Sequence record: PV654397.1
DNA: 64,000 nt
Source: Escherichia phage WPEC5
Strand: one strand, 5' to 3'
Under the pieces are notes generated by a model. That model did no database searches, had not been told where the DNA came from, and worked only from the letters and a program-made list of their open reading frames with translations. This document shows positions 60,114 through 62,432 of this stretch, piece after piece. The stretch's first letter is position 1, and each line of letters begins with the position of its first letter. A program made the position numbers and the translations under genes.

Positions 60114-60669
60114 AACTCAATACCTCCATTAAGCACTCATAAACACCATCAATCGCATAAGCACAAAAACTGAAATTAATTTTGTTATTCTTGTGTAATG
60201 GACTATTGTATACTGTACTCAACATAACACTATAAAACAAAGAACGTTCATGTGTAAATAATGATTCCTGAAAAAATGCTTCCTCTGATTTAATTTTATT
60301 ATATTCAATCGATTGATCATTAGAATAAAATGAATCTTGATTTGAATTGTACCATGTGTAATCCAAATCATTCTTTGATATAACTGGTGTTGGATTAAAC
60401 TGTAAAAGACTAATAACACTACGGGCATTTGGGGTATCAGGTGTATTGAATCGTTTGTCAAAATAACTTGTGCACGCAATATGTGAATCAAAATCAGATG
60501 GTTTAAACCCCATGAATGCGTTAATGATTCTTGTATATGGTTTTTTATTATGTGCTGCTTTTTGTACATTATATAAGGCTGCAACAATACAAGCTAACTT
60601 TTGTCCCATTAGGATTGCATTAGCGTAGGTGTACTGAATTTCATTGCTGGTACGGTACTTCGAGATCAT
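60100..60669 (-). CDS. FQ-motif family paralog
   Basis: SEEAFFQESLFT. Confidence 0.55.
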   Translation of the reverse strand: MISKYRTSNEIQYTYANAILMGQKLACIVAALYNVQKAAHNKKPYTRIINAFMGFKPSDFDSHIACTSYFDKRFNTPDTPNARSVISLLQFNPTPVISKNDLDYTWYNSNQDSFYSNDQSIEYNKIKSEEAFFQESLFTHERSLFYSVMLSTVYNSPLHKNNKINFSFCAYAIDGVYECLMEVLSYEAE

Positions 60670-60991
60670 GGAACAGCCTCACTTTGCCTAACTCGTCATT
60701 GGATATTAATTCGTTAACAGCTTTCTGTATATTCCTTAATAATAGCACATCAAATCCTTTTGTGTCAAGCACACATTGCATTTGGAAGAATTCTTCTTCT
60801 GATAATGTATTAAAATCCACAAAATTGTCTAATATTACGTCATTATCCAAATGTGCCATGTGCCATGTATTTCTTTCGGAGCGTTTAATAAAATTCCATC
60901 CATCTGGATAATCGGGTTCTAATTCTACATATATCCCTGATAATGTATAAAGCATTTTATACTTCATAACTATTGTACTCATTGCTTTCAC
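60641..60991 (-). CDS. MKYKMLYTL short FQ-family paralog (start probably at internal MKYKMLYTL, about 60967)
   Basis: MKYKMLYTLSGIYVELE...SEEEFFQMQCVLD; near-duplicate of 60988..61299. Confidence 0.55.
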   Translation of the reverse strand: MKAMSTIVMKYKMLYTLSGIYVELEPDYPDGWNFIKRSERNTWHMAHLDNDVILDNFVDFNTLSEEEFFQMQCVLDTKGFDVLLLRNIQKAVNELISNDELGKVRLFHDLEVPYQQ

Positions 60992-61299
60992 TGTACGTCG
61001 ATGTCATAATACGCTCCTACTTCATAATCTTTCTTGCTTTGGAATTCATTAACGACTTTCTGTATATTTCTTAATGTTACCATGTCATGTCCGTACATGT
61101 CAACCACCAATTGCATTTGGAAAAATTCTTCTTCAGATAATGTATTAAAATCTATAAAATAATCCGTAACAACATGTGCGTCTAAATTTGCCATGTACCA
61201 TTGATTGGTATCGACCTCTTTAACCAAATTCCATGCATCTGAATCGGATTCTAATTCTACATATATTAATGTTAATGTATACAGCATTTTATACTTCAT
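60988..61299 (-). CDS. MKYKMLYTL short FQ-family paralog
   Basis: MKYKMLYTLTLIYVELE...SEEEFFQMQLVVD. Confidence 0.55.
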   Translation of the reverse strand: MKYKMLYTLTLIYVELESDSDAWNLVKEVDTNQWYMANLDAHVVTDYFIDFNTLSEEEFFQMQLVVDMYGHDMVTLRNIQKVVNEFQSKKDYEVGAYYDIDVQ

Positions 61300-61795
61300 A
61301 ACTATATCCTTGCATTAATAAATCATAAACGTTTGAAAGGTGCGGAATTTTGATATAAAATTTAAAACCCTTAATTAAAGGATTCGCGTACAATGAACTG
61401 AATAACTTTAGATAATGTATTTGACGAGGACTGTATAATAACGATTTCTGAAATAATTCAGCACTACAATCTGAACTAATATCAATTAAATCAATTCGTG
61501 CTTCTACTTCATCATCTTGTTTCAAAACATAAAAGAAATAATCGTTTGTGTTGACCCACAAATACCCTTCACTATTTTCGTATATAACAGGAGATGCTTG
61601 TTCTGGATTGCCTTGGGCAAATGCTGCAAAACAAACTTTTGCATTACTTTCATCTTTAAACATAAACGATAATTTATCATATCTATCTTCTATGCGTAAA
61701 TCACCTATAAAAATGTACTTATGCATAGAATGATTATTCTTGAGCATAAGCATTACTGTACTAATCTTGTGTGCTAATAATTCTATCTCATTCAT
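61289..61795 (-). CDS. FQ-motif family paralog (recent duplicate of 61872..62432)
   Basis: MNEIELLAHKI...AELFQKSLLY...DLLMQGYSYEV; shares termini with next gene. Confidence 0.6.
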   Translation of the reverse strand: MNEIELLAHKISTVMLMLKNNHSMHKYIFIGDLRIEDRYDKLSFMFKDESNAKVCFAAFAQGNPEQASPVIYENSEGYLWVNTNDYFFYVLKQDDEVEARIDLIDISSDCSAELFQKSLLYSPRQIHYLKLFSSLYANPLIKGFKFYIKIPHLSNVYDLLMQGYSYEV

Positions 61796-61801
61796 ATATT
61801 A

Positions 61802-61882
61802 TTACCTATTGATAGATACATCGTCATTGACTTCTAATTCAACATAAATCATATCTTTTGTATACAGCATTTTATACTTCAT
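61802..61882 (-). pseudogene. truncated relic of an MKYKMLYTL-family gene
   Basis: Own translation MKYKMLYTKDMIYVELEVNDDVSINR then stop (26 codons) versus about 100 aa in intact copies; lies in a roughly 55-bp direct repeat shared with 61,273-61,312. Confidence 0.5.
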
Positions 61883-62432
61883 AACTATATCCTTGCATTA
61901 AAAGATCATAAGCAATATCAACTAATTCTAAACGAATGAAAAATTTTAAATTATCTTTCAATGGATTCAAATGCATTGTACTAAACAACATAAGATACTT
62001 CATTTGATTTGTATTGTATATTAGGGATGTCTGAAATACTTCTGCTTCATTGTAAGGATCAATGAATTTTATACCTTCTTCACTATAATCCGTTTTGGAA
62101 TTTTGATATATAAAATAATCATCACCATAATTGTACCACAAATAACCTTCAAAACTGGAATCAAATTCTGAATTTTCATTTCGCATTAAAGGTGATACTG
62201 AAATTGGATTTGAACCAACTGTTGCACAAACCTCAATGAAAGCATCTTCATTTCCCTTAACTTCTTCTTTGATTTTATCATTGTACTGTCCTGCAAAACC
62301 AGCTTTTACTTCCAAATATAAACTACTCCCAACTTTATTAATTCTTAAAAGGGAACTCTGTACTGTATTCGCATTGTTCAGCACTAACGATATTGTGCAA
62401 ATCTTATGTACCAATAACTCAATATCATTCAT
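61872..62432 (-). CDS. FQ-motif family paralog (recent duplicate of 61289..61795)
   Basis: MNDIELLVHKI...AEVFQTSLIY...DLLMQGYSYEV. Confidence 0.6.
   Translation of the reverse strand: MNDIELLVHKICTISLVLNNANTVQSSLLRINKVGSSLYLEVKAGFAGQYNDKIKEEVKGNEDAFIEVCATVGSNPISVSPLMRNENSEFDSSFEGYLWYNYGDDYFIYQNSKTDYSEEGIKFIDPYNEAEVFQTSLIYNTNQMKYLMLFSTMHLNPLKDNLKFFIRLELVDIAYDLLMQGYSYEV

What the first reader, a model, noticed from the sequence alone, without database searches (positions are those of the whole stretch)
60641..62432. Recent tandem duplication with a decaying gene relic
Genes 61,872-62,432 and 61,289-61,795 are near-duplicates (both begin MN[DE]IELL[AV]HKI and end DLLMQGYSYEV). Each is followed by sequence beginning ATGAAGTATAAAATGCTGTATAC (MKYKMLYT...). 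Downstream of the first copy this ORF is truncated after 26 codons (about 61,802-61,882), while downstream of the second it is intact (60,988-61,299) and followed by another paralog (60,641-60,991). A roughly 55-bp near-identical direct repeat sits at about 61,273-61,312 and 61,861-61,900. This is a snapshot of duplication followed by pseudogenisation, showing the multigene family is actively turning over.
Basis: seen in the sequence. Interest (0 to 1): 0.5.

Follow-up and report, generated by a model that had tools for sequence, protein, structure and literature searches.

The report
Duplication-joint scars in jumbo-phage gene array
The 26-codon "relic" in this giant E. coli phage is not a gene that decayed but the seam left where a gene-sized block was joined head-to-tail to its neighbour, in a small gene array that related phages keep reshuffling through a short shared gene-boundary sequence; this is ordinary phage genome mosaicism, seen here in unusually clear detail.

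Summary
The window comes from an Asteriusvirus (121Q/PBECO4-like jumbo coliphage). All the ORFs named are at the stated coordinates, and a 43-nt exact direct repeat exists (61276-61318 / 61859-61901). But the two "near-duplicates" share only 39% of their amino acids; only their ends are alike.

The 26-codon ORF is a chimera. Its first 64 nt are the 5' end of a B-family gene. They match phage A4's allele at 50 of the first 51 nt, against 42/51 for the neighbouring B1. The last 23 nt are the sequence that normally lies upstream of an A-family gene. So it is the novel joint of a tandem duplication and was most likely truncated from the start.

A second, unnoticed joint ORF (60957-61007, MTSTYSESNEYNSYEV) marks the B1/B2 duplication.

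The first joint is shared by 14 genomes in two clades. It is frameshifted in seven of them, so it is old and is not a conserved micro-ORF.

The middle gene A2 is 98% identical in DNA between clades whose flanking genes are 54-58% identical in protein, which indicates cassette exchange. One near-identical phage (Ecwhy_1) lacks relic+A2, with the crossover inside the 43-nt repeat. About 17 phages carry single copies.

Turnover is therefore real. "Recent duplication then decay" is not supported. Gene functions remain unknown. Interest is low to moderate.

The parts
62444..62626 (-). g60, the 60-aa gene upstream of the array. The 3' end of its PBECO4-type allele is the source of part of the relic's tail.
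61872..62432 (-). A1, an A-family gene (phrog_19795, function unknown), 186 aa.
   Evidence: It is 54% identical to the gene at the same position in 121Q and PBECO4.
61819..61882 (-). B-derived part of the relic: the first 64 nt of a B-family gene. Its start codon overlaps the A1 stop.
   Evidence: 50/51 nt to phage A4's B head, 47/51 to PBECO4's B, and 42/51 to the adjacent B1. Homology to PBECO4's B runs through ...GACGATG (nt 64).
61796..61818 (-). Upstream-of-A part of the relic (TATCTATCAATAGGTAATAATAT). It supplies the relic's accidental stop codon and the ribosome-binding site of A2. The novel joint lies between 61818 and 61819.
   Evidence: 15-16 of 17 nt match the PBECO4 g60 tail TATCCATCGATAGGTAA, and the last 12/12 match the sequence upstream of A in phage A4. 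The same joint is in 14 genomes.
61289..61795 (-). A2, a second A-family gene, 168 aa. It is an exchanged cassette: 9 nt differences in 507 nt from the slurp01-clade copy, although the flanking genes are 54-58% identical in protein.
61859..61901 (-). Copy 1 of the 43-nt exact repeat: A1 3' end, Shine-Dalgarno AAGGA, and the overlapping A stop / B start.
61276..61318 (-). Copy 2 of the 43-nt exact repeat, at the A2 3' end / B1 5' end. The crossover of the Ecwhy_1 deletion lies within this repeat pair.
60988..61299 (-). B1, a B-family gene (phrog_33987, function unknown), 103 aa.
60957..61007 (-). Second joint scar, a 16-codon ORF MTSTYSESNEYNSYEV*. It is 36 nt of an A3-type gene head (61007-60972) fused to the last 15 nt of an A gene (AGTTATGAAGTATAA, 60971-60957), and it marks the B1/B2 duplication joint.
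   Evidence: the A3 head of WPEC3 and vB_Ec-M-J reads MISKYNESNEYN (32/36 nt identical by eye). The scar is present in every B1+B2 genome examined.
60641..60967 (-). B2, a second B-family gene, 108 aa from the ATG at 60967. It is 79% identical to the single B of 121Q.
60100..60669 (-). A3, a distant A-family paralogue of 189 aa. It ends in the same kind of junction (AGTTATGAAGC) with the next gene.
59296..60113 (-). g113 and g165, the last two genes of the tightly overlapping chain. A terminator-like hairpin follows at 59287-59308.

Best explanation
Shown. The locus is a small array of two alternating gene families in an Asteriusvirus jumbo phage. On the minus strand it reads g60, A1, joint b, A2, B1, joint a, B2, A3, g113, g165. 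Relatives such as 121Q, PBECO4 and CRJP21 have the simple form g60, A, B, A3.

Two separate head-to-tail duplications produced the extra A and the extra B. The A unit ran from 23 nt upstream of the A start codon to nt 64 of the following B gene. Its novel joint therefore reads as a 26-codon chimeric ORF: 21 codons of B, then 5 accidental codons and a stop from the out-of-frame g60 tail. The B unit ran from 15 nt before the A stop to nt 36 of A3. Its joint is a 16-codon ORF made of an A3 head and an A tail.

Inferred. Both 'relics' were truncated from the moment they formed.

Inferred. The copies are far too different (39% and 57% amino-acid identity) to have diverged in place, because the joints next to them are still 50/51 identical to living alleles. 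Either each event joined two different alleles from co-infecting phages, or one copy was later replaced by a foreign allele.

Inferred. Exchange and loss run through the A-stop/B-start junction, ATGCAAGGATATAGTTATGAAGTATAAAATG. This stretch carries the ribosome-binding site and an 11-nt overlap of two reading frames. That constraint would keep it at 97% identity among alleles that are otherwise 40-55% identical in protein, so it offers 31-43 nt of perfect homology for recombination.

What the A and B proteins do is unknown.
For: - Anatomy of the joints.
- Single-copy state in 121Q, PBECO4 and CRJP21, and mixed states in slurp01, TH47, ECO103, Ecwhy_1, Turkey3, A4 and ph0011.
- The same joint is in 14 genomes, intact (26 codons) in 7 and frameshifted (14 or 18 codons) in 7.
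- The A2 block (about 61280-61818) is 29-30 of 30 nt identical to slurp01, TH47 and ECO103, while the flanks score 11-25 of 30. There are 9 differences in 507 nt.
- The A2 lineage is the sole A gene at this position in phage A4 and in metagenome contig L020.
- Ecwhy_1 has an A1-type sequence left of the 43-nt core and a B1-type sequence right of it. Its 900-nt left flank is identical to fEgEco12, which carries relic+A2.
- The last 20 nt of A show 97% mean pairwise identity among six divergent alleles.
- Nucleotide diversity in the relic is 0.022, against 0.004-0.010 in the neighbouring genes.
- No public annotation of the fetched genomes calls the relic a gene.
- Genes along the chain overlap by 1-35 nt, consistent with translational coupling.
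Against: - The exact order of events cannot be reconstructed. The two versions of the relic head match different B alleles (A4-type in the window clade, PBECO4-type in the slurp01 clade), which itself needs further recombination or gene conversion.
- A full A-B duplication followed by a deletion that happened to end exactly at the old unit boundary would give the same sequence. It is less parsimonious but not excluded.
- The recombination-linker role of the junction rests on where the mosaic boundaries fall and on one deletion variant. Ecwhy_1 is an UNVERIFIED GenBank record. No recombination assay exists.
- The diversity and dN/dS figures rest on 3-10 substitutions.
Confidence: 0.78

Rival explanations
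1. A recent in-place tandem duplication of a whole A-B unit was followed by decay of the extra B copy to a 26-codon stump.
For: - A1/A2 and relic/B1 are homologous and adjacent.
- The relic copy in the slurp01 clade has acquired a frameshift, so the fragment does decay.
Against: - A1 and A2 are 39% identical.
- The relic's B homology ends at nt 64 and abuts directly on upstream-of-A sequence, with no trace of the remaining ~250 nt of B.
- The relic head is closer to the B alleles of phages A4 and PBECO4 than to the adjacent B1.
- The joint is shared by two divergent clades.
Confidence: 0.1
2. The short ORF is a functional micro-ORF or leader peptide that couples translation of A1 to A2 and is kept by selection.
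For: - Its ATG overlaps the A1 stop exactly as a real B start does.
- In the window clade it ends 6 nt before the A2 start.
- The start codon is retained in all 14 genomes.
Against: - Seven genomes carry a +1 frameshift, which changes the peptide after codon 9 and stops it about 40 nt before A2.
- The last five codons come from out-of-frame g60 sequence.
- Nucleotide diversity is 2-5 times that of the neighbouring genes.
- A2 has its own AGGT ribosome-binding site.
- The 26-codon form is seen only in genomes that are more than 98% identical here, so its constancy carries no weight.
Confidence: 0.07
3. The array is an assembly or sequencing artefact, a repeat-induced misjoin.
For: - The locus contains repeats.
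- Some related records (CMSTMSU, Ecwhy_1, TH47) are flagged UNVERIFIED.
Against: - The same A1-relic-A2 arrangement occurs in 13 independently sequenced phages from several countries.
- The repeats are only 43 nt exact, shorter than sequencing reads.
- A1 and A2 are too different to be confused.
Confidence: 0.02

Closest known systems
Tandem gene arrays in jumbo phages: 121Q and phage G (Hua et al. 2017, mBio, PMC5646251)
   Same: Same genus. That paper interprets an array of more than 30 similar genes in 121Q as the product of tandem duplication that expanded the genome. The window itself holds several such arrays.
   Different: As far as I read it (a term search only), that paper gives no breakpoints. 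Here the two joints are resolved to the nucleotide, the copies are heterologous alleles rather than near-identical repeats, and presence or absence is mapped across about 31 phages.
PeSL-mediated modular shuffling in hyperplastic regions of T4-type phages (Arbiol et al. 2010, PMC2839356; Comeau et al. 2014, PMC4122927)
   Same: Short conserved sequences between non-essential genes of unknown function mark the boundaries of insertions, deletions and replacements between closely related phages (abstract). Here the boundaries of the A2 block, of the Ecwhy_1 deletion and of the allele swaps fall at a conserved junction.
   Different: A PeSL is an intergenic promoter plus stem-loop terminator. The junction here is coding sequence: a ribosome-binding site plus overlapping stop and start codons. 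It shows no promoter enrichment (42 hits against 34 +/- 6.5 expected), no terminator and no stable fold (z = +0.72). Mini-circles were not tested.
Novel-joint (junction) fragments of segmental tandem duplications, as described for bacterial and phage duplications (textbook knowledge, not checked in a paper here)
   Same: A head-to-tail duplication of a segment whose ends lie inside flanking genes leaves one chimeric joint, made of the 5' part of the downstream gene fused to the 3' part of the upstream one. That is exactly the make-up of both scars. Only 1-2 nt are shared at each joint, read by eye from the aligned sequences.
   Different: The duplicated copies are not alike, so allele replacement or a cross between different phages has to be added.

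Membership tests
Tandem segmental duplication with a novel joint | Two homologous units, same orientation, adjacent | tested here: met
   A1/A2: blastp E 5e-32, 583-nt register. B1/B2: E 3e-38, 332-335-nt register.
Tandem segmental duplication with a novel joint | The joint places the unit's 3' boundary sequence directly against its 5' boundary sequence | tested here: met
   The relic is B nt 1-64 plus 23 nt of upstream-of-A sequence. The second scar is 36 nt of an A3 head plus 15 nt of an A tail.
Tandem segmental duplication with a novel joint | An unduplicated state exists in relatives | tested here: met
   121Q, PBECO4 and CRJP21 have g60-A-B-A3. About 17 distinct phages have one copy.
Recent duplication | Copies nearly identical along their whole length | tested here: not met
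   38.8% (A1/A2) and 57% (B1/B2) amino-acid identity. Only the termini are alike.
Pseudogene formed by decay of a full-length copy | Residual homology, stops or frameshifts spread along the former gene | tested here: not met
   Homology to B ends at nt 64 at the joint, and no 3' remnant of B is present. The scar itself has picked up a frameshift in 7 genomes.
Conserved micro-ORF or leader peptide | Reading frame and length conserved across diverged relatives | tested here: not met
   26 codons in 7 genomes; 14 codons (18 in BF17) in 7 others.
PeSL-type shuffling cassette (T4-type phages) | Sigma-70 promoter plus stem-loop terminator in the conserved linker | tested here: not met
   The promoter scan is not enriched, there is no terminator at the junction, and the fold z-score is +0.72.
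PeSL-type shuffling cassette (T4-type phages) | Indels and replacements between close relatives are bounded by the conserved linker | tested here: met
   The right edge of the A2 block and the Ecwhy_1 deletion both fall in the 43-nt junction.
PHROG families phrog_19795 (A) and phrog_33987 (B) | Full-length profile match | tested here: met
   A1 4.5e-50, A2 2.7e-33, A3 4e-56; B1 7.4e-41, B2 2.8e-54. Both families are 'unknown function'. No Pfam family reaches its cut-off.
One superfamily joining the A and B genes | Profile-profile homology between A and B | tested here: inconclusive
   hhalign finds only a 17-column EExFQ motif, probability 2.5%, E 0.019. Weak cross-hits to phrog_13866 and phrog_22855.

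The most novel reading that the evidence does not exclude
The A-stop/B-start junction, whose sequence would be frozen by its ribosome-binding site and the overlap of two reading frames, acts as a portable recombination linker. Asterius-type jumbo phages would use it to gain, lose and swap whole accessory-gene cassettes during mixed infection. The in-frame scar ORFs would persist because they keep the chain of translationally coupled genes unbroken. This would be a coding-sequence counterpart of the T4 PeSL system.
Probability: 0.3. Interest if true: 0.45.

Novelty: new member of a known kind. Interest (0 to 1): 0.3.

Why it matters
This is a clean, nucleotide-resolved example of how accessory gene arrays in jumbo phages grow, shrink and exchange alleles.
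- The breakpoints of two duplications are preserved as tiny chimeric ORFs.
- One cassette has moved between lineages.
- One natural variant shows a precise loss through a 43-nt repeat.

For annotators, it explains a recurring unannotated 76-nt gap and warns against calling the 26- and 16-codon ORFs genes. It does not reveal a new mechanism, and it says nothing about what these phage-specific proteins do.

Tried and rejected
- Function of A and B. No Pfam family reaches its cut-off. The PHROG families are 'unknown function'. Searches of 5.8 billion proteins found only 22 (A) and 6 (B) clusters, apparently all from the same phage group.
- Homology between A and B. Only a short EExFQ motif turned up. 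The question was left open.
- RNA element or structure in the relic. No Rfam hit at E <= 1 and no stable fold.
- Promoter or terminator in the gap. Nothing above background.
- More architectures in IMG/VR, JGI metagenomes and GTDB genomes, using exact patterns for the A2 head and the junction. Only 121Q itself was found.
- Positive selection on A2. dN/dS is about 1.1, but from 9 substitutions, so it is not interpretable.
- Other joint scars in the window's intergenic gaps. None were convincing. The hit at 40036-40405 lies inside the paralogous ORF 39996-40547.
- A first flank comparison for vB_Ec-M-J and WPEC3 was mis-anchored and is ignored.

Full report
**Source and setting.** The window is 33.6% G+C and almost entirely coded on the minus strand. 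The 59-64 kb stretch matches 33 phage records, all Asteriusvirus-type jumbo coliphages or Salmonella phages (121Q, PBECO4 and relatives). The closest are EC.P1 and fEgEco12, at about 99.6% over the locus. Genes along the chain overlap by 1-35 nt. The 76-nt gap that holds the relic is one of the few gaps.

**Check of the observation.**
- The shared termini are real.
- The direct repeat is 43 nt exact (61276-61318 and 61859-61901) and no dinucleotide shuffle produced a match. It sits within 96 nt of 81% identity.
- The claim of "near-duplicates" fails. A1 and A2 are 38.8% identical in protein (E 5e-32). B1 and B2 are 57% identical.
- A third, more distant A paralogue (A3, 60100-60669) follows B2. 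It ends in the same kind of junction, AGTTATGAAGC.

**What the relic is made of.** I compared the 87 nt from the relic ATG (61882) to the base before the A2 ATG (61796) with related phages.
- Of the first 51 nt, 50 match the B gene of phage A4 and 47 match that of PBECO4. Only 42 match the neighbouring B1 and 41 match B2.
- Homology to PBECO4's B continues to nt 64 (...GACGATG) and then stops.
- The next 17 nt (TATCTATCAATAGGTAA) match the 3' end of the PBECO4-type g60 gene (TATCCATCGATAGGTAA) at 15-16 positions.
- The last 12 nt are identical to the sequence upstream of the A gene in phage A4.

The ORF is therefore a chimera. Twenty-one codons come from B. Five accidental codons and a stop come from out-of-frame g60 tail and ribosome-binding-site sequence. 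This is what a head-to-tail duplication leaves when its unit runs from 23 nt upstream of A to nt 64 of B. No full-length B gene is needed at this position.

Between B1 and B2 lies a 16-codon ORF, MTSTYSESNEYNSYEV* (60957-61007).
- Its first 36 nt are the head of an A3-type gene. The A3 alleles of WPEC3 and vB_Ec-M-J begin MISKYNESNEYN.
- Its last 15 nt (AGTTATGAAGTATAA) are the end of an A gene.
- It is the novel joint of the B duplication, whose unit ran from 15 nt before the A stop to nt 36 of A3.

**Comparison across phages.** I fetched nineteen related phage loci and one metagenome contig. Genes were classified by blastp.

| Architecture | Genomes |
|---|---|
| g60-A-B-A3 (single copies) | 121Q, PBECO4, CRJP21. 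By match length and hit counts, about 12 more phages that were not fetched; with ph0011 and A4 below, about 17 single-copy phages |
| A1'-relic-A2-B-A3 | slurp01, TH47, ECO103, JP4, BF17, BAU_ELP-22, EC22.5-2 |
| A1-relic-A2-B1-scar-B2-A3 | window, EC.P1, fEgEco12, vB_Ec-M-J, WPEC3, CMSTMSU |
| same, plus an extra 109-aa gene before A1 | Turkey3 |
| A1-B1-scar-B2-A3 (no relic, no A2) | Ecwhy_1 |
| A-B, with no A3 | ph0011 and A4. In A4 and metagenome contig L020 the A2 lineage is the only A gene |

**Age and coding status of the relic.** The joint sequence is the same in all 14 genomes that have it, so it arose once.
- In the seven window-clade genomes the ORF has 26 codons.
- In the seven slurp01-clade genomes a one-base insertion shortens it to 14 codons (18 in BF17, which also has a 12-nt micro-duplication).
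- It is therefore not conserved as a coding ORF.
- Within the window clade its nucleotide diversity is 0.022, against 0.004-0.010 for A1, A2 and B1, based on 3 segregating sites.
- No public annotation of the fetched genomes calls it a gene.

**Mosaicism.** Between the window and slurp01, TH47 or ECO103, identity jumps to 29-30 of 30 nt from about 61818 (the joint) to about 61280 (the junction with B). On either side it is 11-25 of 30.
- A2 differs by 9 nt in 507 (dS 0.016). A1 and B in the same genome pairs are 54% and 58% identical in protein.
- Other genes swap too. A3 of vB_Ec-M-J is 65% identical to the window's, although the neighbouring genes are 98-100% identical.
- The scars are still 50/51 identical to living alleles while the duplicated genes are 39% identical. 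Divergence in place therefore cannot explain the pair.
- Either the event joined different alleles from two phages, or one copy was replaced later.

**Loss through the repeat.** In Ecwhy_1 the sequence left of the 43-nt core is A1-type and the sequence right of it is B1-type. Its 900-nt left flank is identical to fEgEco12, which carries relic+A2. The simplest reading is deletion by homologous recombination between the two repeat copies. One caveat is that the record is marked UNVERIFIED.

**Why the junction stays the same.** Among six A alleles that are 40-55% identical in protein, the last 20 nt of the gene show 97% mean pairwise nucleotide identity, the highest of the gene. That stretch holds the AAGGA ribosome-binding site of B and the 11-nt overlap of the A stop with the B start. 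The protein ends (MNEIELLAHKIST... and ...YDLLMQGYSYEV) are also nearly invariant across 21 family members. I infer that this layered constraint keeps 31-43 nt identical between otherwise diverged cassettes and so supplies the homology for exchange and loss. This step is inference. It rests on where the boundaries fall.

**Function.**
- A is phrog_19795 and B is phrog_33987. Both are of unknown function and have no Pfam family.
- Both families appear confined to this phage group.
- The A2 structure model is of low confidence and has no fold match.
- Profile comparison of A and B finds only a short EExFQ motif.
- No RNA family, structure, promoter or terminator is associated with the relic.

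**Comparison with what is known.** Tandem duplication as a source of genome growth in 121Q has been noted before (PMC5646251). Shuffling of accessory genes at short conserved linkers is established for T4-type phages (PMC2839356). The linker here is coding sequence rather than a promoter-terminator cassette, so it works like that system but is not a member of it.

**Verdict.** The feature is an ordinary, well-preserved case of phage mosaic evolution.

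Noticed in passing
window 60957-61007 (-): A second joint scar, not in the finding. It is a 16-codon ORF, MTSTYSESNEYNSYEV*, made of an A3-type head fused to an A tail, and it marks the B1/B2 duplication joint.
   Followed up: yes
L001 (Turkey3) 1569-1898; L008 (A4) 1658-2008; L020 3519-3878: An extra gene of 109-119 aa with an N-terminal signal-peptide-like segment (MNKIILALTFILSMFANTVQA...) sits between g60 and the A gene in some phages and is absent from the window. In Turkey3 the insert is bounded by the shared octamer ATATGAAT at the start codons.
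   Followed up: partly
L012 (vB_Ec-M-J) 3332-3907; L013 (WPEC3) 3332-3925, versus window 60100-60669: The A3 gene is only 65-75% identical between phages whose neighbouring genes are 96-100% identical. The A3 position is therefore also an exchanged cassette.
   Followed up: partly
L017 (BF17) about 2066-2090: A 12-nt tandem micro-duplication (ATGAAGTATAAA twice) sits at the relic start, on top of the clade's frameshift.
   Followed up: no
window 50979-53995, 54179-55626 and 63142-63590 (-): Further tandem arrays of paralogous small genes, for example four genes at 52176-53995 with E down to 5e-32 and four at 54179-55626 with E down to 1e-30. They may belong to the large array reported for 121Q.
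   Followed up: no
window 61289-61795 versus L009 2642-3148: Of the 9 substitutions that separate the two A2 copies, 7.5 are non-synonymous (dN/dS about 1.1). There are too few changes to call selection.
   Followed up: partly
window 63574-63885, 59296-59793, and the A and B genes: Several families in this region share a short acidic EE[LFV]FQxxL motif followed by helices. g103 also ends like an A protein (YDKLIQG against YDLLMQG). Cross-hits to phrog_13866 and phrog_22855 are weak, so a common origin is possible but unproven.
   Followed up: partly
L011 (CMSTMSU) 1500-3500: The A1, A2, B2 and A3 genes are broken into fragments in this UNVERIFIED_ORG record, and only 5 CDS are annotated across the fetched 4.9-kb stretch. 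This looks like sequence-quality frameshifts rather than biology.
   Followed up: no
window 59287-59308 (-): This is the only terminator-like hairpin in 59-64 kb. It overlaps the stop of g165 (59296-59298), which suggests the whole A/B chain is one transcription unit.
   Followed up: no
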